A stretch of DNA of 64,000 nucleotides from positions 128,001 to 192,000 of the forward strand of contig VMGC01000002.1 in the NCBI GenBank assembly GCA_007376385.1, given 5' to 3'. The translations under genes were made by a program, and so were the position numbers. The first letter of the stretch is position 1. Each line of letters starts with the position of its first letter. The notes beneath the pieces were generated by a model. The model made no database searches and was not told the origin of the DNA. It saw only the letters and a program-made list of their open reading frames with translations. Below are positions 240 to 64,000 of this stretch, in pieces. The stretch comes from Parcubacteria group bacterium Gr01-1014_8 (lineage in GTDB: Bacteria; Patescibacteriota; Minisyncoccia; Phycocordibacterales; UBA2100).

Positions 240-587
240 CTACCTGCTCTTCCCATCGTACGGAGTGAGCGTGAGTTCGGAAAGTTCGACGCCATCCAAA
301 CATCGGACGTTGATCGAAACGGTAGGGCCGTTCTTGCCAGCTCCTTTTCCGAATGCCTGCACGCCGCAGGTCTTGCAGAAAAGGTGGTCTATCAATTTTT
401 TATTGAATCGGTAACTTTGCAATTTGTTTTCTCCAGAGATCAGCTTGAATTGCGTTGCGGGTGAGAAGGTCAAGAGCAGTCCTTTTTTCTGACAGTGGGT
501 GCAGTTGCACTCAATTACTTTCGTCAGATCTGCTTCAACTTCAAATTGCACTGCCTTGCAATGGCAAGCACCTTTGTATTTTTTCAT
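240..587 (-). CDS. Gfa/CENP-V family zinc-binding protein (glutathione-dependent formaldehyde-activating enzyme-like)
   Basis: CxC...CxxC...CxxC cysteine pattern (ACHCKAV..CNCTHCQKKG..CKTCG). ATG at 585-587; the track's TTG start at 635 is less likely. About 115 aa, typical for the family. Confidence 0.6.
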   Translation of the reverse strand: MKKYKGACHCKAVQFEVEADLTKVIECNCTHCQKKGLLLTFSPATQFKLISGENKLQSYRFNKKLIDHLFCKTCGVQAFGKGAGKNGPTVSINVRCLDGVELSELTLTPYDGKSR

Positions 588-596
588 GAACCTCAG

Positions 597-704
597 TATA
601 CCCCATGAGATAAAGCATTTATCGTATCTCTCCAAATAATTTCCAGGCTAAAAGTCTATTAATCGGCTGAAATTGTAGATTTTTTTTATCTCACGGGGTA
701 TACC
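597..704. repeat. Palindromic-arm element copy 1 (arms TATACCCCATGAGATAA / TTATCTCACGGGGTATACC) in a divergent intergenic region
   Basis: 19-nt inverted arms separated by an AT-rich spacer of about 70 bp. The same arms occur at 36203-36310 and 61348-61452. The left arm lies 10 nt from the Gfa ATG on the minus strand. Confidence 0.6.
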
Positions 705-776
705 AATATGACCGTTTTGCGTAAGGTTATCTGAAAAGAAGAGCACATGTACTAAGGGGTGTGTTACAGTACCCCA

Positions 777-12534: not shown

Positions 12535-13182
12535 CTACAATAAAGAATGCCCGTGAAGGACGATAGGAAGAATATCTTCGATTGTGTACACGATGTGGTC
12601 CGGTTCGTACGCGACGAGATCAGCGTGGGGTCCGTATGAAATACCAATAGTCCCGACACCGGCGGCTTTTCCCGCTTGGATGTCGACTGGCGTATCGCCG
12701 ACAAACCACGCGTCTTTCGCCTCTACATCTACCGCTCGGAGGGCTGCAGACACGTGTTCCGGGTCTGGCTTGGCTCGAGTGACATCATCTTGAGACAGCA
12801 AGGCATCAAACATGCTCACTATTTTTACGTGTTGCATGGTGGCGATGGACGATTTTCTCATACGATTTGTCACTGTTGCCAGCTTGATGCCCTTGTCTTT
12901 AAGCGTCTGCAGCGTTTCTTTTACGTTTGGAAATATCATTACTAACTGAAGATTTTTTTCTTGAAAATCGCGATGCGCTTGCATAAGCCGCAGGGCATCT
13001 TTTTCCGGGAACAGCATTTCATAGTTCTCTCTCAGCGTTTTACCCTGGCTTGCGAGAAGCACTGCAGTTGCCCGTGAAATAGGCGCTCCTTCTTCAGTGG
13101 TAACATGCTCGTAAGCACGAATAATGTACTCGTACGTATCAAGCAGAGTCCCATCGACATCAAAAAGTACTGCTTTTGTCAC
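12535..13182 (-). CDS. HAD-IA family hydrolase (phosphatase / beta-phosphoglucomutase-like)
   Basis: Motif I LFDVDGTLLDT, then downstream motif II and a GDT..D motif. GTG start. Confidence 0.7.
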   Translation of the reverse strand: MTKAVLFDVDGTLLDTYEYIIRAYEHVTTEEGAPISRATAVLLASQGKTLRENYEMLFPEKDALRLMQAHRDFQEKNLQLVMIFPNVKETLQTLKDKGIKLATVTNRMRKSSIATMQHVKIVSMFDALLSQDDVTRAKPDPEHVSAALRAVDVEAKDAWFVGDTPVDIQAGKAAGVGTIGISYGPHADLVAYEPDHIVYTIEDILPIVLHGHSLL

Positions 13183-35159: not shown

Positions 35160-36191
35160 CTACCGCGCTCGCGGGATGCCTCCAGTGTCAACAGACTGCC
35201 CGTCAGTGGATAGAGCAGGCTCTGATACCGATGGTTCGCTCGCCGGCGTTCCGCCGGTTCCTTCTGCGCTGGTCGTCGTTGCTTCGACTATCGAAGGAGT
35301 ACCCACGGTAGAATTTGTGGATCGGTTTGCTTTTGGTGCAGCCTTTGAGGGCGCACTTGGCACTAGAGGCTCATTTATTTCAGGTAATTGCTCTGTCTCC
35401 TCCATCACACGGGATGGATCCATGGGCTCTTCCTCTGGGAGAGCAGTCTGGATGCCGAGCATCAGACCAGCACCGACGAGACCGGCAAGAATGTGCATAT
35501 ATGTGCCTCCGTTGCTCCGAACTGACGCGAGCGCGTGGGGCAAGAGGTCATGCAAGACAACAGACATAAATCCTCCGGCGGCTATACCAGAAAATAGTGC
35601 GACGATCCAAGTCACTGATGACAGTGTGCTTGCAAGGAAAAAGCCGATGAGAATGGTGGAGGAAACGAGAAAACTCCGGGTCAGGGCTCCTTTATTGGAA
35701 TATCCAGCCCCGCGTAGCACAAAGTACTCTGAGACCTCCTGCACCGTCTCATGGAGAACGACGCCGAGCGTTGCTGCAAGGCCGATGTACCAATTCGTCT
35801 CAAAAGCACCCACAAGCAGAATACCGTCCCCAATGTTATGCAGAGCGTCGCTAAAGAGCACGCTACGACCCTCTATGGGAGTGTGAGTGTGACTATTGTC
35901 AACGTCGTGGTGGTGGTGCTTTGTTGGAAAAATATAGTGAATTCCTTCCATAAGCGTTGCACCGATAAGTACCGATATGACAGCGACCACCCAGCCGCCT
36001 GCGCGTACGGCCTCCGATGCAAGGTCAAATGCGACAAGAACAAACACGCCAGCAGAAAAGGTTGCCAAATAGGTCAGATATCGTTGCATCCACTGTCCCA
36101 GTTTTCCTGCGGAAAAGATGACCCCAATAAGAGATATCAGCATGACAAGAAGCGATGCGAGAAAAGCAGCGCTCGCAGCTGAAAAGTCCAT
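35160..36191 (-). CDS. ZIP family metal (zinc) transporter with a long S/T/A/P-rich C-terminal tail
   Basis: His-rich loop HHHHDVDNSHTH and a HNIGDG..E motif in the TM core. About 90 aa of low-complexity C-terminal extension. Confidence 0.7.
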   Translation of the reverse strand: MDFSAASAAFLASLLVMLISLIGVIFSAGKLGQWMQRYLTYLATFSAGVFVLVAFDLASEAVRAGGWVVAVISVLIGATLMEGIHYIFPTKHHHHDVDNSHTHTPIEGRSVLFSDALHNIGDGILLVGAFETNWYIGLAATLGVVLHETVQEVSEYFVLRGAGYSNKGALTRSFLVSSTILIGFFLASTLSSVTWIVALFSGIAAGGFMSVVLHDLLPHALASVRSNGGTYMHILAGLVGAGLMLGIQTALPEEEPMDPSRVMEETEQLPEINEPLVPSAPSKAAPKANRSTNSTVGTPSIVEATTTSAEGTGGTPASEPSVSEPALSTDGQSVDTGGIPRAR

Positions 36192-36202
36192 AATGGGTGT
36201 GA

Positions 36203-36346
36203 GTGTACCCCATGAGATAAGGACCCGCTATAGGCTATTCACAGGAAGCTACTTTTTGAAAGAAGAATTACTCTAGCGAACGCCACCCGGTCTATCTCAC
36301 GGGGTGTACCCCAGAGAGTAAAGACTCGCTACCGGCTATTCACAGA
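36203..36346. repeat. Palindromic-arm element copy 2, with an internal 44-nt direct duplication
   Basis: Arms GTGTACCCCATGAGATAA (36203-36220) and TATCTCACGGGGTGTAC (36293-36309). The unit GTGTACCCCATGAGATAAGGACCCGCTATAGGCTATTCACAGGAAG is repeated at 36303-36346. The left arm lies 13 nt from the ZIP ATG. Confidence 0.6.
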
Positions 36347-36717
36347 AGATATGCTGACAACAAAGTATGCACATCATGCGGACCGTTTGCCTCTATCTAC
36401 TATTGACACAGGGCCGGGTATGTATCCGAGTATTTTCCTTAAAACTTGACGGAACAAGTGAAATGTCCGATAGGAATGTCCATGAGGATGTCTGATGGGA
36501 CAGGTTGATGATCAGAGCTGCCTTAGTAAGGGACAGACCGACAGAATGGACTGGATATAGGACGTCATGTATGCCGGAATTGACAGTCAGTAAAATTGTG
36601 TTGTTTCGGACATTTTATCGTCAACTTTCGTTGACAGGGATTGTACCGCGCGTACTGTTACGGACAGCGCTCTTTTAATTTACGCTATTACTAAAGATTA
36701 ATTATAAATACGAGCAT

Positions 36718-45823: not shown

Positions 45824-45894
45824 TGCATGCAATTTTTTGTCCTGTTCTGACATTCGTCGCCATATAGTGCAGGAGAGAACATTTGCTATACTGT

Positions 45895-46068
45895 CACCAC
45901 TCCTTCGGGGTTGGGTGAAAGTCCCAATCGGCGGTATAGCCCGCGAGTTCTTAGGGACACGATTTGGTGAGATTCCAAAGCCGACCGTACAGTCGGGATG
46001 AAAGAAGGAAGCGAGGCACCCTTGTTGGATGCTTGCGTGGTAACCCCGATGGATCGGGGTTTTTTATT
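45895..46068 (+). ncRNA. FMN riboswitch (RFN element) with an SD-sequestering/terminator hairpin
   Basis: TCCTTCGGGGTTGGGTGAAAGTCCCAATCGGCGGTATAGCCCGCGAG...GGTGAGATTCCAAAGCCGACCGTACAGTCGGGATGAAAGAAGG matches the RFN core. Followed by CCCCGATGGATCGGGGTTTTTT, directly upstream of ribE. Confidence 0.85.
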
Positions 46069-61347: not shown

Positions 61348-61452
61348 TGGTATACCCCGTGAGATAAAAAGGTCTCAAAATTATGCGGCAAGCGCACATG
61401 TACTCAAAATTCCTTTTTTTGCCTATAGTCACGGGCTATCTCATGGGGTATA
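61348..61452. repeat. Palindromic-arm element copy 3
   Basis: Arms GGTATACCCCGTGAGATAAAAAG and CTATCTCATGGGGTATAC flank a ~65-bp spacer. Lies between divergent immunity-like and uvrA genes. Confidence 0.6.
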
Positions 61453-61462
61453 CTCGTCCGTG

Positions 61463-61544
61463 TCCCCGGTACCACAAGTCCTTCGGACTTGACTACGGGG
61501 CAGGTAACCCCTCGGACAAGACGAGGGGCGAGGCTATTTGCATC
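61463..61544 (+). promoter_or_regulatory. Conserved 5'-leader hairpin with UUCG tetraloop upstream of uvrA
   Basis: CCCCGGTACCACAAGTCCTTCGGACTTGACTACGGGG, an extra CCCCTCG..CGAGGGG hairpin, then CGAGGCTATTTGCAT. Paralogous to 31380-31437. Confidence 0.5.
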
Positions 61545-64000
61545 ATGATAGAATCATCAAAAAATTCAGAAGGGCCAGGCAAGATCATCGTAAAGGGGGC
61601 GAGGACGCATAACTTAAAAAATATCAGCGTCGAGATACCTCGTAATAAAATGGTCGTCTTTACGGGGCTCTCGGGAAGCGGGAAATCGTCGCTGGCATTC
61701 GACACAATTTTTGCTGAAGGCCAGCGTAAGTACGTGGAATCGCTTTCCGCTTACGCGAGGCAGTTCTTACGTCAAATGCAAAAGCCCGATGTTGACGAGA
61801 TCAGCGGTCTTTCTCCTGCCATCTCTATCGACCAAAAAAGCCGCTCAAATAATCCGCGCTCTACCGTTGCGACGATAACGGAAATTTACGATTACCTGCG
61901 CGTACTGTACTCGCGTGTCGGACATCCCCACTGTCCCGTCTGCGGCCGAATAGTAAAAAAAATGTCGAATGAGGAAATTCTTGAGACCGTTTTGAAGGTA
62001 GTCGATGCAGCAAAAGCTTCAAAAAATGTCCCCAAGGGTAAGCACACGAAGGGAGTAACGGACGCAAAGGTACGCATAACCGCTCCGGTTGTCGTCGGAC
62101 GAAAGGGTGAATATTACCAGCTTCTGTACGACATGTTGAACAAGGGTTTTGAGAAAGTCATCATCGATGGTGAGGAGAAATCACTACGTGAGCGCATTGA
62201 GCTAAAAAAACATTTCAAGCACGATATAGATGTCGTTGTTGATGAGATATTCGTGAGCGAGTTCAAGGATGATGCGAAAGGCTCTCGCGAACGAGCAAGT
62301 GAATCCATCGAGCGCGCGCTCCATGAAGCCGAGGGTCTCGTAAAAATAATCGATCCTGAGGGCGGTGCGCATATCGTATCCGCAAAATTCATGTGTCCGT
62401 ATGATGGCTTTTCATTTCCCGAAGTTGAACCTCGGCTTTTTTCGTTCAATTCTCCATACGGAGCCTGTCCCACGTGCAATGGCTTAGGAACCAAATATTT
62501 TTTTGGAGATGAGCAGTGCGATACATGTCAGGGCGCACGTCTCCGAAGCGAAGCGTTGCATGTGTTTCTTGGGAGCGAAAAAAAGGAAGGCGCGCGGCAG
62601 AATATCGTGCAAGTAACAAGCATGTCTATAGCGAATGCTCGTAAATTCTTCGACGAGCTGGTATTAACGGAAAAGGAAAAAGAAATATCAAAAGTCGTCA
62701 TAAAAGAAATAGTAAACCGGCTCCAATTCATGCTTGACGTCGGTATCGAATATCTGACGCTTGATAGACGGGCAAATACACTCTCTGGCGGCGAAGCGCA
62801 ACGGATCCGCCTTGCTTCACAGCTTGGGAGCGGGCTTGTGGGTGCGCTCTATGTCCTCGATGAGCCGACCATCGGTCTTCACCAAAAAGATAACGACAGG
62901 CTTATTGAGACGCTTAAACATCTCCGCGAACTGGGAAATACTGTGCTTGTCGTAGAACATGACGAGGATACGATATTTGCCGCCGATTACATTGTTGATC
63001 TGGGACCCGGCGCCGGCACGCACGGCGGGGAAATAGTCGTAGCAGGCTGGCTTGAAGAACTCTTGACCGCCAAGACGAATAAGTCGGGCTCTAGGACCTT
63101 GGCGTATCTTCGCGACGAAACTCGGATCGAAATGCCGGAAAAACGACGTACGAACGACAAGGGAAAAATAAAAATTCGCGGAGCATCAAAATTCAATCTT
63201 GAAAAAGTGAATGTAGACGTGCCGCTTGGAAAATTAGTTGTTATCACCGGCGTTTCCGGTAGCGGGAAATCAACTTTTTTGTACGAAATCATGCATCGGA
63301 ATTTACTCGCCAGATTCGATAAACGATTTCGAAATGCAAAAACCTACAACGCAGCAGAGTTTACTGGAACGGAATACCTGGGCCGTTCGATACTCATTGA
63401 CCAGTCGCCGATAGGCAGGACGCCGCGCTCAAATCCCGCGACCTATACGGGGGCGTTCACGCATATTCGAGACATGTTCGCGATGAGCGAAGAGGCGCGT
63501 GCGCGCGGATGGGGGCCAGGCAGGTTCAGTTTTAACCGCAAGGGCGGGCGATGCGAAGCGTGCGAAGGGAACGGCATGGTCGCCGTTGAGATGCACTTTT
63601 TGCCGACGGTGTATGTCACGTGCGATGTGTGCGCAGGAAGACGTTTTATGAAGGAAACGCTTGAGGTGAAATTCAAGAAAAAAAGCATACACGATATTTT
63701 GAAGATGACCGTCGAGGAAGCGCTTACGTTTTTTACTGACATTCCAGCCATATCAGACCGCCTTAAAACGTTGAGCAATGTTGGACTTGGTTATCTTCAA
63801 TTGGGGCAGAGCGCAACGACACTCTCCGGCGGCGAAGCGCAACGCGTAAAAATAGCGTCGGAGTTGTATCGTCCGCATCAGACAAAAACGATGTACCTCT
63901 TGGACGAACCAACCGTCGGACTTCACTATGACGATGTGCAGAAGCTCATCGAAATTCTCCAACGACTCGTTGAGAGAGGGAACTCGGTAGTCGTTATCGA
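61545..64000 (+). CDS. uvrA: Excinuclease ABC subunit A (5' part; continues beyond the window)
   Basis: GLSGSGKSSLAFDTIFAEGQRKYVESLSAYARQFL, zinc-finger CxxC pairs and a second ABC module (GVSGSGKST). No stop before the window end. Confidence 0.95.
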   Translation, partial: MIESSKNSEGPGKIIVKGARTHNLKNISVEIPRNKMVVFTGLSGSGKSSLAFDTIFAEGQRKYVESLSAYARQFLRQMQKPDVDEISGLSPAISIDQKSRSNNPRSTVATITEIYDYLRVLYSRVGHPHCPVCGRIVKKMSNEEILETVLKVVDAAKASKNVPKGKHTKGVTDAKVRITAPVVVGRKGEYYQLLYDMLNKGFEKVIIDGEEKSLRERIELKKHFKHDIDVVVDEIFVSEFKDDAKGSRERASESIERALHEAEGLVKIIDPEGGAHIVSAKFMCPYDGFSFPEVEPRLFSFNSPYGACPTCNGLGTKYFFGDEQCDTCQGARLRSEALHVFLGSEKKEGARQNIVQVTSMSIANARKFFDELVLTEKEKEISKVVIKEIVNRLQFMLDVGIEYLTLDRRANTLSGGEAQRIRLASQLGSGLVGALYVLDEPTIGLHQKDNDRLIETLKHLRELGNTVLVVEHDEDTIFAADYIVDLGPGAGTHGGEIVVAGWLEELLTAKTNKSGSRTLAYLRDETRIEMPEKRRTNDKGKIKIRGASKFNLEKVNVDVPLGKLVVITGVSGSGKSTFLYEIMHRNLLARFDKRFRNAKTYNAAEFTGTEYLGRSILIDQSPIGRTPRSNPATYTGAFTHIRDMFAMSEEARARGWGPGRFSFNRKGGRCEACEGNGMVAVEMHFLPTVYVTCDVCAGRRFMKETLEVKFKKKSIHDILKMTVEEALTFFTDIPAISDRLKTLSNVGLGYLQLGQSATTLSGGEAQRVKIASELYRPHQTKTMYLLDEPTVGLHYDDVQKLIEILQRLVERGNSVVVI

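What the first reader, a model, noticed from the sequence alone, without database searches (positions are those of the whole stretch)
597..704. Shared 19-nt palindromic arm motif in three divergent promoter regions, abutting the start codons of Zn-related genes
GGTATACCCCRTGAGATAA and its reverse complement TTATCTCAYGGGGTRTAC occur as facing arms about 65-90 bp apart at 597-704, 36203-36310 and 61348-61452. Each pair lies between divergently transcribed genes. The spacers are unrelated in sequence but AT-rich, with a T-run next to the right arm.

Read outward, each gene's leader begins UUAUCUCAYGGGGUAYAC. The GGGG can serve as a Shine-Dalgarno sequence and lies 10-13 nt before the ATG of the Gfa-family Zn-protein gene (587) and of the ZIP Zn-importer gene (36191). 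The other arms precede a small secreted protein, the Ca-repeat secreted protein operon, an immunity-like minigene and uvrA.

Copy 2 also carries a 44-nt direct duplication that includes an arm. Candidate explanations are a palindromic operator for an unidentified regulator (possibly metal-responsive), a MITE with terminal inverted repeats, or an RNA hairpin with 19-bp arms.
Basis: partly seen in the sequence, partly recalled or inferred. Interest (0 to 1): 0.7.

Follow-up and report, generated by a model that had tools for sequence, protein, structure and literature searches.

The report
Tiny transposon inside promoter -10 boxes
The repeated 19-base arms are the ends of a ~100-bp mobile DNA element that inserted into the TATA core of three promoters in a Parcubacteria (CPR) genome and rebuilt the -10 box each time; its likely parent is an unusually small element that encodes only an 80-residue GIY-YIG nuclease.

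Summary
There are six arms in three facing pairs, where chance predicts none.

The metal-operator and Shine-Dalgarno readings are not supported. Each pair has 12-bp terminal inverted repeats, CCCCRTGAGATA ... TATCTCAYGGGG. These enclose 70-74 bp of unconserved DNA and are flanked by a duplicated TATA. The element sits inside the -10 hexamer of an extended -10 promoter, giving TGn-TATA|element|TATA-CT.

Orthologous promoters in relatives are empty, with a plain TGnTATACT. This holds for uvrA (the window's own copy 3), for uvrC, and for 80 VirD4-like loci.

Across about 60 Parcubacteria-type assemblies, the arm that regenerates TATAnT is followed 6-9 nt later by a start codon in 54 of 94 cases. 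That is leaderless-promoter geometry. The downstream genes are functionally diverse.

The same repeats and TATA flanks also bound an 80-86 aa GIY-YIG nuclease gene (UPF0213/SLX1-like). I saw this in five loci, including the window's own genome and a 41%-GC Lloydbacteria genome. In addition, 15 of 120 homologue clusters end in a peptide read from the repeat itself.

Best reading: these are MITE-like derivatives of a minimal GIY-YIG element that targets -10 boxes. Mobilisation by the nuclease is inferred, not shown. No description of this element was found in the searchable literature.

The parts
597..702 (.). Copy 1, whole insertion. TATA (597-600), left repeat CCCCATGAGATA (601-612), 74-bp interior (613-686), right repeat TATCTCACGGGG (687-698), TATA (699-702).
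   Evidence: The reconstructed pre-insertion site on the - strand is atatTGgTATACTgaggttcATG.
595..600 (-). Regenerated -10 hexamer TATACT for the GFA-family gene. The start codon is at 587..585, 7 nt downstream, which is leaderless geometry.
   Evidence: A homologue, L209, has TGcTACAAT-N6-ATG with no arms.
243..587 (-). GFA-family gene (PF04828) served by the copy-1 promoter arm.
703..705 (-). Relic of the original extended -10. It reads TGG on the - strand, immediately upstream of the displaced TATA.
   Evidence: The flank outside the non-promoter arm is enriched for T and G at -15/-14.
36204..36308 (.). Copy 2, whole insertion. TGTA (36204-36207), CCCCATGAGATA (36208-36219), 73-bp interior, TATCTCACGGGG (36293-36304), TGTA (36305-36308). 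The flanking 4-mer is a direct repeat, TACA on the - strand.
36202..36207 (-). -10 hexamer TACACT for the ZIP transporter gene (35160-36191, - strand). The ATG lies 10 nt downstream.
36309..36349 (+). Degenerate duplicate of the copy-2 left end (CCCCAGAGAGTAAAG...), a remnant of a tandem partial copy.
   Evidence: Intact tandem dimers of the same kind occur in L022 and L068.
61351..61452 (.). Copy 3, whole insertion. TATA (61351-61354), CCCCGTGAGATA (61355-61366), 70-bp interior, TATCTCATGGGG (61437-61448), TATA (61449-61452). As single-stranded DNA the arms fold into a 17-bp stem.
   Evidence: Syntenic relatives have this site empty.
61348..61350 (+). TGg of the original extended -10 of the uvrA promoter, now separated from its T(-7) by the insertion.
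   Evidence: L200 has ctgTGgTATACTcgcgcc at the same position.
61449..61454 (+). Regenerated -10 hexamer TATACT of the uvrA promoter, followed by an ~85-nt leader and the uvrA ATG at 61545.

Best explanation
The arms are the 12-bp terminal inverted repeats of a non-coding, MITE-like mobile element: 5'-CCCCRTGAGATA ... TATCTCAYGGGG-3'. The element inserts into the TATA of -10 promoter boxes of the type TGnTATA(C)T and duplicates that TATA. The data equally allow a 2-bp AT duplication with 13-bp repeats.

One junction then reads GGGG-TATA-CT. That is a complete -10 hexamer which still has G at -14, so the downstream gene keeps its promoter. These genes are usually leaderless, with the ATG 6-9 nt after the hexamer. 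The other junction keeps the old TGn-TATA but is followed by C, which makes it a dead -10.

The window belongs to Parcubacteria group bacterium Gr01-1014_8, a relative of Kaiserbacteria. It holds three such insertions, at the promoters of a GFA gene, a ZIP gene and uvrA.

The probable autonomous partner is a 280-340 bp element with the same repeats and the same TATA flanks. Its only gene encodes an 80-86 aa GIY-YIG nuclease of the UPF0213/SLX1-like type. One copy lies elsewhere in the same genome.

Shown here: the repeats, the duplicated TATA, empty versus filled orthologous sites, the promoter geometry, and the nuclease gene sitting between the repeats.

Inferred: that the promoters still fire, that the nuclease mobilises the elements, and how it would do so. 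My working idea is structure-specific cutting at the foot of the hairpin or cruciform formed by the repeats, followed by rejoining at TATA.
For: 1. Anatomy. 153 of 190 arms in 85 CPR-labelled loci (plus 5 unlabelled loci and the window) lie in facing pairs. The conserved block ends sharply, and complementarity does not extend beyond it in either direction.

2. The flanking 4-mer is a direct repeat. It is identical in 65 of 76 pairs. The variants co-vary directly (TACA/TACA 9 pairs, TGTA/TGTA 3 pairs) and never as reverse complements. The fifth base is always C on the non-promoter side, where it belongs to the repeat. On the promoter side it varies (C, G, A or T), as expected for position -8 of a -10 hexamer.

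3. Empty sites.
- All 80 metagenomic orthologues of the VirD4-like gene have a plain tTGnTATACT/TATAAT-N7-9-ATG. L013, L075 and L102 carry the insertion.
- In a neighbour-joining tree those three filled loci are scattered among the empty ones.
- The window's uvrA copy is absent from six syntenic relatives whose UvrA is 81-90% identical. They keep TGgTATACT plus the same leader hairpin.
- uvrC is filled in L202 and empty in L199, L200 and L203.

4. Promoter geometry. Arms followed by T have an ORF-opening ATG 6-9 nt after the hexamer in 54 of 94 cases. Arms followed by another base do so in 1 of 79. Unoccupied genes in the window use TAnnnT-N6-8-ATG. The FMN riboswitch starts just after a TGCTATACT.

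5. Inherited polarity. The R/Y position occurs as G..T in either orientation (28 and 28 pairs) or as G..C (20 pairs), and never as A..T. Length class and repeat type are specific to each genome.

6. Dispersal. One assembly has the same 73-bp interior (about 90% identity) at two loci with unrelated flanks.

7. Autonomous partner. The GIY-YIG ORF lies between the same repeats with TATA-type flanks in L084, L089 and L116, in the window's own genome at L212, and in a 41%-GC Lloydbacteria genome, L214-L221. 15 of 120 homologue clusters end in LSHGV, ISRGI or YLTG, which is a read-through of the repeat. The catalytic GIY/YIG motifs, Arg and Glu are invariant. The closest solved relatives are UPF0213 proteins and SLX1.
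Against: - Interiors of copies are unrelated even within one genome, while the repeats are nearly perfect. The partner repeat has either 0-2 mismatches or is absent altogether. That is unusual for a MITE family. It needs either long-lived element lineages kept intact by continued mobility, or selection on the repeats.
- Three discrete interior lengths (about 8-12, 33-39 and 67-77 bp) remain unexplained.
- Some short-class hairpins with the same repeats are not flanked by TATA and do not sit in a -10 box: L126, L196, L199.
- The flanking 4-mers of three nuclease-bearing copies differ by one base or one indel.
- An 80-aa nuclease has no evident strand-transfer or DNA-binding module, and no transposition has been observed.
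- All promoter activity is inferred from sequence geometry.
Confidence: 0.8

Rival explanations
1. The arms are a co-opted cis-regulatory module. They are mobile in origin, but a host or element-encoded protein now binds both repeats. One repeat overlaps positions -24..-13 of the promoter, so binding would repress or tune about 50 promoters per genome. This would be a regulon wired by a transposon.
For: - The repeats are almost invariant while interiors are saturated with change, and the partner arm is either intact or gone.
- The interior length class is genome-specific, as if matched to a protein's geometry.
- A weak -35-like T..GAAT appears at 17-bp spacing inside mid-class interiors.
- rpoD and a DeoR-like HTH gene are among the genes downstream of arms.
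Against: - Occupancy is not conserved between related element-bearing genomes. The window and L202 share synteny but no filled promoter.
- Orthologous promoters work without the element in most relatives.
- The downstream genes have no functional theme.
- The element inserts in both orientations equally often.
- Repeat conservation can also be explained by selection at the level of the element, since only intact copies can move.
Confidence: 0.18
2. The elements are mobile but moved by a different enzyme. Candidates are a tyrosine or serine site-specific recombinase acting on a 28-bp arm-core-arm site with TATA(C) as the crossover core, a DDE transposase of the piggyBac/IS1380 type, or an HUH (RAYT-like) enzyme acting on hairpins. 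On this view the GIY-YIG gene is cargo, or a homing-endonuclease gene nested in the element.
For: - Full palindromic junctions, TATCTCAYGGGG-TAYAC-CCCRTGAGATA, occur in tandem arrays and have the 11+6+11 layout of Xer/Cre-type sites.
- CCC-initial repeats, a 4-bp AT-only palindromic duplication and seamless empty sites resemble piggyBac, whose bacterial outgroup is IS1380 (PMC10813416).
- A Y1_Tnp-like gene exists in the window's genome.
- A bare GIY-YIG domain is not known to carry out strand transfer.
Against: - tblastn with the ISEcp1 (IS1380) transposase found nothing with an E-value below 3.7 in 1.48 Mb of fetched sequence.
- The Y1_Tnp-like gene is flanked by a different palindrome, not by these arms.
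- No pair of arms 0.7-3 kb apart encloses a recombinase or transposase in any locus.
- The only ORF repeatedly found between the repeats is the GIY-YIG gene. This was seen in five loci across distant lineages, and 15 more homologue clusters are inferred from their repeat-encoded C-termini.
Confidence: 0.25
3. The arms are a palindromic operator for a metal-responsive (Zur/Fur/MerR-like) or other dedicated regulator.
For: Two of the three window copies precede a GFA (Zn-binding fold) gene and a ZIP gene. The arms overlap core promoters.
Against: - Downstream genes across 61 loci fall into 75 Pfam families with no metal enrichment.
- The spacing between arms ranges from 6 to 80 bp.
- Each arm is a half of an inverted pair, not a compact dyad.
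- Orthologous promoters in relatives lack the arms.
- In L202, a related genome, a Fur gene sits next to a ZIP gene and no arms lie there.
Confidence: 0.02
4. The arms act as RNA: a 17-19 bp hairpin in transcripts working as a terminator, processing site or translational element, with GGGG as the Shine-Dalgarno sequence.
For: - The arms can pair. As single-stranded DNA they give -22 kcal/mol with a z-score of -5.4.
- The pair often fills the gap between co-directional genes.
- One variant pair shows a change that keeps the arms complementary, CCCCATTAGATA / TATCTAACGGGG.
Against: - The sequence itself is conserved, not just the pairing.
- The central 4-mer co-varies as a direct repeat, which breaks pairing.
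- An A.C mismatch on the sense strand is as common as G.U.
- Complementarity does not extend beyond the arms and the interiors are unstructured.
- Canonical terminators sit outside the arms in several loci.
- T at the position after TATAC is explained by a -10 hexamer and not by pairing.
- No Rfam family reached its gathering score there.
Confidence: 0.03

Closest known systems
Bacterial MITEs that touch promoters, for example Correia/NEMIS elements of Neisseria (from my own knowledge, not tested here)
   Same: Short, non-coding and bounded by terminal inverted repeats. They have a short AT-only target duplication, are dispersed in intergenic regions, show presence/absence between relatives, and form -10-like boxes at the element-target junction.
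   Different: - Much smaller: 32-101 bp between the duplicated TATAs.
- Interiors are unrelated between copies.
- The target is the -10 hexamer itself, and the insertion rebuilds it.
- The presumed partner encodes a GIY-YIG nuclease rather than a DDE transposase.
piggyBac superfamily and its bacterial relatives, the IS1380 family (ISEcp1)
   Same: Repeats starting CCC... and ending ...GGG. A 4-bp AT-only palindromic target (TTAA there, TATA here). Empty sites that look seamless (PMC10813416). The ISEcp1 ends CCTAGATTCTACGT / ACGTGGAATTTAGG were read directly.
   Different: No piggyBac/IS1380-type DDE transposase was found in 1.48 Mb of fetched sequence. The only ORF between the repeats is an 80-aa GIY-YIG protein.
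REP/REPIN elements with their RAYT transposases (from my own knowledge)
   Same: Inverted doublets of a short conserved motif that can form hairpins. Discrete spacer lengths per family, tens of copies per genome, and long persistence.
   Different: REPINs keep their spacer sequence within a genome, lie mostly after genes and go with a Y1 HUH gene flanked by REPs. Here the Y1_Tnp-like gene of the same genome is flanked by an unrelated palindrome. A TATA duplication and -10 targeting are also present here.
Free-standing GIY-YIG homing endonucleases (T4 Seg proteins, I-TevI) and small UPF0213 / SLX1 structure-specific nucleases
   Same: GIY-YIG catalytic core with invariant Tyr, Gly, Arg and Glu. 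Best solved matches are UPF0213 BH0048 (E 8e-9), EF2693 and SLX1. There is a weak, sub-threshold match to group I intron endonuclease TIGR01453. All are selfish intergenic genes.
   Different: Homing endonucleases carry a DNA-binding domain, have no terminal inverted repeats or target duplication, and spread only between alleles. This gene is a bare 80-aa domain bounded by 12-bp repeats, and it has non-coding derivatives at many non-allelic sites.

Membership tests
MITE / non-autonomous TIR transposon | Terminal inverted repeats at both ends | tested here: met
   The 12-bp repeats CCCCRTGAGATA / TATCTCAYGGGG have 0-1 mismatches in most pairs.
MITE / non-autonomous TIR transposon | Target-site duplication flanking the repeats | tested here: met
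   TATA (or TACA, TGTA) is directly repeated and identical in 65 of 76 pairs. Filled sites differ from empty sites by the element plus one TATA.
MITE / non-autonomous TIR transposon | Presence/absence at orthologous sites in related genomes | tested here: met
   VirD4-like gene: 3 filled loci against 80 empty. uvrA: the window is filled and six syntenic relatives are empty. uvrC: 1 filled against 3 empty.
MITE / non-autonomous TIR transposon | Multiple dispersed copies, too short to encode a protein | tested here: met
   Three copies in 64 kb, several per assembly in about 60 assemblies, interiors of 6-80 bp.
MITE / non-autonomous TIR transposon | A coding element with the same termini in the same genome | tested here: met
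   In L212, from the same sample and organism as the window, a GIY-YIG ORF lies between CCCCGTGAGATA and TATCTCACGGGG.
MITE / non-autonomous TIR transposon | Copies of a family share internal sequence | tested here: not met
   Interiors are no more alike within a genome than between genomes. The only exceptions are one assembly and orthologous loci.
piggyBac / IS1380 family | DDE/DDD transposase of that family | tested here: not met
   tblastn with the ISEcp1 transposase against 1.48 Mb gave no hit with an E-value below 3.7. Only about 1% of each genome was sampled, so absence is not proven.
piggyBac / IS1380 family | CC(C)-initial repeats and a 4-5 bp AT-rich duplication | tested here: met
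   CCCC... repeats with a TATA duplication. Comparison data come from PMC10813416 and the ISEcp1 ends.
REPIN / RAYT system | A Y1 HUH (RAYT) gene flanked by the same repeats | tested here: not met
   The Y1_Tnp-like gene at L212 16970-17677 is flanked by CCATCAAGGCGWCGCCTTGATGG, not by the arms.
Transcription-factor operator (Zur, Fur, MerR or other regulon) | Functionally coherent target genes, and sites conserved at orthologous promoters | tested here: not met
   75 Pfam families among 61 downstream genes. Orthologous promoters are empty in relatives.
Transcription-factor operator (Zur, Fur, MerR or other regulon) | A protein that binds the motif | not testable with these tools
   Needs EMSA, pull-down or DAP-seq.
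Sigma-70-type leaderless promoter (for the arm followed by T) | A TAnnnT hexamer 6-8 nt upstream of the start site, which is the start codon; often with an extended -10 | tested here: met
   54 of 94 arms followed by T have the ATG 6-9 nt after TATAnT, against 1 of 79 for other arms. Empty orthologues show TGnTATACT-N7-9-ATG. Start sites themselves were not measured.
GIY-YIG nuclease superfamily (the ORF of the long form) | GIY and YIG motifs with catalytic Arg and Glu | tested here: met
   PF01541 is precomputed for all listed homologues. Y3, V4, Y5, Y14, G16, R24, H28 and E48 are invariant. The best match among solved structures is the UPF0213 protein 1zg2.
GIY-YIG homing endonuclease (I-TevI / Seg type) | Catalytic domain joined to a DNA-binding domain; allele-to-allele homing without inverted repeats or target duplication | tested here: not met
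   The protein is only 80 aa, a bare catalytic domain. TIGR01453 scores 20-25 bits against a cut-off of 56. The element has inverted repeats, a TATA duplication and copies at non-allelic sites.

The most novel reading that the evidence does not exclude
The 280-340 bp form is a new class of prokaryotic transposable element, and the ~100-bp copies in the window are its non-autonomous offspring. It consists of a 12-bp inverted repeat, an 80-aa UPF0213/SLX1-like GIY-YIG gene and a second 12-bp inverted repeat. Its only enzyme is a bare structure-specific GIY-YIG nuclease, with no DDE, HUH, serine or tyrosine enzyme. It cuts at the foot of the repeat hairpin or cruciform and at TATA, so the element moves by seamless cut-and-rejoin into -10 promoter boxes. 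With more than 1,600 protein clusters in Parcubacteria, it would be one of the commonest mobile elements of that group and the smallest autonomous transposon known.
Probability: 0.4. Interest if true: 0.85.

Novelty: new variant of a known kind. Interest (0 to 1): 0.62.

Why it matters
1. It gives a sequence-level picture of promoters in an uncultured group, Kaiserbacteria-like Parcubacteria. The promoter is an extended -10, TGnTATACT, placed 6-9 nt before the start codon, so many genes appear leaderless. This is directly useful for gene calling and for building genetic tools.

2. It shows a mobile element whose target is the -10 box itself and whose end rebuilds that box. This is a way for a transposon to live in a streamlined genome of about 1 Mb with almost no neutral DNA. 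It is also a natural experiment on how much upstream promoter DNA these promoters need.

3. The repeat-bounded 80-aa GIY-YIG gene makes a testable proposal for the function of part of the widespread UPF0213-type small GIY-YIG family. It may also represent a new kind of transposition enzyme.

4. Practically, these arms should be masked in motif-discovery scans of CPR genomes. Otherwise they will be mistaken for regulons, as happened here.

Tried and rejected
- Shine-Dalgarno role for GGGG: rejected on geometry.
- Special sigma-factor or phage-type contiguous promoter: rejected, because orthologous promoters lack the 12-mer.
- Regulon by function: no enrichment.
- LexA, RDRM, CIRCE, NrdR and DnaA-box resemblances recalled from memory: none fits the sequence or the spacing.
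- DNA uptake sequence: the density and placement are wrong.
- CRISPR-like array: the flanks are part-repeats, and the units in tandem arrays are identical copies.
- RNA structure: no Rfam family reached its gathering score at the arms, interiors are unstructured, and the pairing does not extend.
- Phage origin: five solitary hits in 2.9 million viral contigs, none with a partner arm nearby.
- Insertion at the centre of TATA with 14-bp repeats and no duplication: rejected, because the TACA/TACA variants would then have to be reverse complements.
- IS1380/piggyBac transposase: no homologue found.
- Arms 0.7-3 kb apart enclosing a transposase: none found.
- The 1.5-kb inverted AATCTCACGGGGGAATTCA pair in L199: it is part of a ~130-bp inverted repeat around a serine-recombinase island next to a tRNA, and the resemblance is chance.
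- First metagenome scan with the ZIP protein: found nothing.
- Literature: ten searches found no description of the motif or the element.
Full report
THE OBSERVATION

The motif is present as described. Six copies of GGTATACCCCRTGAGATAA (at most 2 mismatches) lie at 595-613, 686-704, 36202-36220, 36292-36310, 61349-61367 and 61436-61454. None was found in 100 dinucleotide-preserving shuffles. They form three facing pairs with inner spacers of 74, 73 and 70 bp. The partial direct duplication after the right arm of copy 2 is also real, at about 80% identity over roughly 44 nt.

WHERE ELSE IT OCCURS

- 85 loci come from assemblies labelled Kaiserbacteria, Adlerbacteria, Campbellbacteria, Nomurabacteria, Paceibacterota, Parcubacteria, Patescibacteria, Komeilibacteria or 'Saccharibacteria'.
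- 5 come from unlabelled bacteria.
- 26 come from unrelated phyla. Those 26 are solitary arms with no partner and look like chance matches.

The labels should not be read as phylum-wide breadth. Orthologous proteins between motif-bearing loci are 40-72% identical. One 'Parcubacteria' locus and one 'Saccharibacteria' locus even share intergenic sequence. The element-bearing set is therefore best described as a broad group of Parcubacteria-type CPR lineages.

The window's UvrA is 100% identical to that of Parcubacteria group bacterium Gr01-1014_8. Its nearest relatives are Kaiserbacteria at 84-87%.

ANATOMY ACROSS LOCI

The conserved block is sharply bounded: 17 nt, plus a T at the next position in 76 of 111 exact arms. 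There is no fixed -35.

Arms followed by T complete a TATAnT hexamer. In 54 of 94 such arms an ATG that opens an ORF of at least 50 aa lies exactly 6-9 nt further on, with a mode of 6. Among arms followed by another base this happens in 1 of 79. This is the geometry of a sigma-70-type -10 box driving a leaderless mRNA.

The window itself shows the same architecture at genes without the motif, for example TATAAT-N6-GTG, TAGAAT-N6-ATG and TATTAT-N6-ATG. A TGCTATACT also sits just upstream of the 5' end of the FMN riboswitch.

On this reading GGGG occupies -16..-13, upstream of the predicted start site, so it cannot act as a ribosome-binding site in that transcript.

The 61 proteins encoded downstream of such arms fall into 75 Pfam families. 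They include DNA polymerase III alpha and tau, RecG, RpoD, PheS, HisS, Ddl, RNase H and HII, SecG, MscL and pyrophosphatase. There is no metal theme.

THE PAIRS ARE ASYMMETRIC UNITS

- 153 of 190 arms lie in facing pairs.
- 62 of 79 pairs have one arm followed by T and one not, the latter mostly followed by C.
- Inner spacers cluster at about 8-12, 33-39 and 67-77 bp.
- The non-T arm lies just after the 3' end of a co-directional gene in 44 cases and before a divergent gene in 35. It is therefore usually not a promoter.
- Its conserved core is CCCCRTGAGATA. The flank outside it is enriched for T and G at the positions of an extended -10, giving TGnTATA.
- The 4-mer next to each repeat is a direct repeat, not an inverted one. 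It is identical in 65 of 76 pairs, and the variants co-vary directly: TACA/TACA in 9 pairs and TGTA/TGTA in 3.
- The following base is always C on the non-promoter side, where it is the first C of the repeat. On the promoter side it varies (C, G, A or T), as position -8 of a -10 hexamer should.

So the structure is TGn-TATA | CCCCRTGAGATA - N - TATCTCAYGGGG | TATA - CT. That is inverted termini flanked by a duplicated target. The data equally allow 13-bp termini with a 2-bp AT duplication. They exclude insertion at the centre of TATA without any duplication.

EMPTY SITES

Three independent comparisons show that the element is an insertion.

(a) A VirD4/TrwB-like gene carries the pair in L013, L075 and L102. 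80 metagenomic orthologues, 57-88% identical, were fetched. None has the arms. All have tTGnTATACT or TATAAT, then 7-9 nt, then ATG. In a neighbour-joining tree the three filled loci are scattered among empty ones. The 419 kb of those 80 loci contain only two short-class pairs.

(b) The window's own copy 3. Six relatives with UvrA 81-90% identical keep uvrA downstream of uvrB and murB, as in the window. They have ...TGgTATACT or TATAGT followed by the same leader hairpin, and no arms. Removing the element and one TATA from the window gives gaaaTGgTATACTcgtccg.

(c) uvrC is filled by a short-class element in L202. It is empty in L199, L200 and L203.

In addition, the nearest GFA homologue, L209, has TGcTACAAT-N6-ATGAAAAAATAC where the window has copy 1. 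The window and L202 are both element-bearing and share synteny, yet they share no filled promoter. Occupancy is therefore lineage-specific.

SIGNS OF INHERITANCE AS AN ELEMENT

The variable R/Y position occurs as G..T or as its flipped form A..C in 28 pairs each, as G..C in 20 pairs, and never as A..T. This is explained if the element has an intrinsic G..T polarity and inserts in either orientation relative to the promoter, with a second, symmetric G..C subfamily alongside.

Repeat type and length class go together and are genome-specific. All three window copies are long and of G..T type.

One assembly has the same 73-bp interior, about 90% identical, as tandem dimers at two loci with unrelated flanks.

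Otherwise interiors are unrelated even within a genome and unstructured. Complementarity stops exactly at the arms. The partner repeat has either 0-2 mismatches or is missing entirely.

My interpretation is inference. The copies are old lineages whose termini are kept intact because only intact copies keep moving, while interiors drift to saturation. Neutral DNA is already unalignable between genomes whose proteins are 90% identical, as in L006 versus L054. Selection by the host on the termini is the alternative explanation.

THE LIKELY PARENT

Three 'wide' pairs, 256-287 bp apart, each enclose one ORF: an 80-86 aa GIY-YIG protein, with TATA-type flanks outside the repeats.
- A homology search found 1,671 clusters, all with PF01541. 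Every organism named in the source annotations is a Patescibacteria-type lineage (Lloydbacteria, Zambryskibacteria, Kaiserbacteria, Parcubacteria, Patescibacteria group). One of them is from Gr01-1014_8 itself.
- Fetching that gene showed ...catTATA|CCCCGTGAGATAattaggtacATG ... TAAc|TATCTCACGGGG|TTATAG. It sits in the TATAAT -10 box of a leaderless 2,389-aa gene.
- A 78%-identical homologue in a 41%-GC Lloydbacteria genome is bounded by TATA|CCCCGTGAGATA ... TATCTCATGGGG|TATA-CT.
- Independently, 15 of 120 homologue clusters carry a C-terminal LSHGV, ISRGI or YLTG, which is the translation of the right repeat.
- The catalytic Tyr, Gly, Arg and Glu positions are invariant.
- The nearest solved proteins are the UPF0213 proteins BH0048 and EF2693, and then SLX1, a structure-specific nuclease. 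The NCBIfam match to group I intron endonuclease is far below its cut-off.
- In two copies the inner part of the repeat, TGAGATAAT, lies 7-8 nt before the nuclease ATG. This would make it an inward-facing extended -10. That is inference.
- As single-stranded DNA the arms fold into a 17-bp stem of -22 kcal/mol with a z-score of -5.4. That is the kind of substrate an SLX1-like enzyme would recognise.

That this nuclease mobilises both forms is an inference from architecture, namely a single ORF between conserved termini in distant lineages. No strand-transfer activity is known for such a domain.

ALTERNATIVES CHECKED

- No IS1380/piggyBac-type transposase was found in 1.48 Mb of fetched DNA. The termini (CCC...GGG), the AT-only palindromic 4-bp target and the seamless empty sites do resemble that superfamily (PMC10813416).
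- A Y1_Tnp-like gene in the same genome is flanked by a different palindrome.
- No viral link was found.
- No Rfam family reached its gathering score at the arms.
- Ten literature searches found no description of the motif, of MITEs in this group, or of a repeat-bounded GIY-YIG element.

UNEXPLAINED

- Why there are three discrete interior lengths.
- Why interiors share nothing, even within a genome.
- Short-class hairpins with the same repeats but without TATA flanks, outside -10 boxes, in L126, L196 and L199.
- Solitary arms that still act as promoter arms.

VERDICT

The metal-operator and Shine-Dalgarno readings are not supported.

The arms are the termini of a MITE-like element inserted into, and regenerating, the -10 boxes of three promoters. 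I put my confidence in this at about 0.8. The proposal that a minimal GIY-YIG element is its autonomous parent has good architectural support, at about 0.6. The narrower reading in the novel case, a new transposon class with the specific mechanism given there, I rate at about 0.4. None of this has been tested biochemically.

Noticed in passing
window 45884-46013: An FMN riboswitch (RF00050, 104 bits) at 45897-46013 is preceded by an unoccupied extended -10, TTTGCTATACT, at 45884-45894. This independently suggests that TGnTATACT is the working promoter type in this organism.
   Followed up: partly
window 61455-61544; L198-L203 upstream of uvrA: The uvrA leader carries a conserved hairpin, CCCCTCG-N7-CGAGGGG, a few nt before the start codon in the window and its relatives. 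It may occlude the GAGGGG ribosome-binding site. The window has an extra ~45-nt hairpin-forming insert (ccccggtaccacaagtccttcggacttgactacgggg) that the relatives lack. Nothing in the window but the FMN riboswitch reached an Rfam gathering score.
   Followed up: partly
window, many gene starts (for example 8013, 12535-13182 on the - strand, 20509, 23404, 26926, 54864): Many genes have TAnnnT 6-8 nt before ATG or GTG, and few of the upstream regions I read show a clear Shine-Dalgarno sequence. The organism therefore appears to use leaderless mRNAs widely.
   Followed up: partly
L212 16780-17800 (same organism as the window): A 235-aa gene with a weak Y1_Tnp (HUH transposase, RAYT-like) match is flanked on both sides by a different palindrome, CCATCAAGGCGWCGCCTTGATGG. 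It may be a separate REP/RAYT-like or IS200-like system.
   Followed up: no
L199 19560-21704; L202 19612-20433: A large serine recombinase gene (516-aa ORF in L199) lies next to a tRNA gene and between ~130-bp inverted repeats. It is probably an integrated element. Its AATCTCACGGGGGAATTCA stretch resembles the arm only by chance.
   Followed up: partly
L126 5211-5245; L196 2117-2151; L199 1229-1267: Short hairpins with the same repeats and a conserved loop (CCCCGTGAGATG-gcggcttcgcc-TATCTCACGGGG) occur without TATA flanks and outside -10 boxes in otherwise element-poor genomes. L199 has a variant in which both arms changed so that they stay complementary (CCCCATTAGATA / TATCTAACGGGG). The family is therefore broader than the exact pattern I searched.
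   Followed up: partly
L118-L142, upstream of the small membrane-protein gene next to the VirD4-like gene: The stop codon TGA of the upstream gene supplies the TG of the next gene's extended -10 (cccTGAtATACT-N6-7-ATG). This is very tight packing of gene end, promoter and leaderless start.
   Followed up: no
L001 1972-2040; L101 4127-4193: Pairs in which both arms are followed by T and a leaderless ATG imply that, before insertion, two divergent leaderless genes shared one palindromic -10 box (AGTATACT), with start codons only about 22 bp apart.
   Followed up: no
L059 6278-6544: A solitary promoter-type arm drives a more distant GIY-YIG gene (37% identical to the repeat-bounded family) that lies outside the arm rather than between two arms.
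   Followed up: no
window 36388-36430: About 64 nt beyond the degenerate second left end of copy 2 there is a possible decayed right end, TATCTActattgacacaGGGccGGGTATGTAT. This suggests an older tandem copy that has eroded.
   Followed up: no
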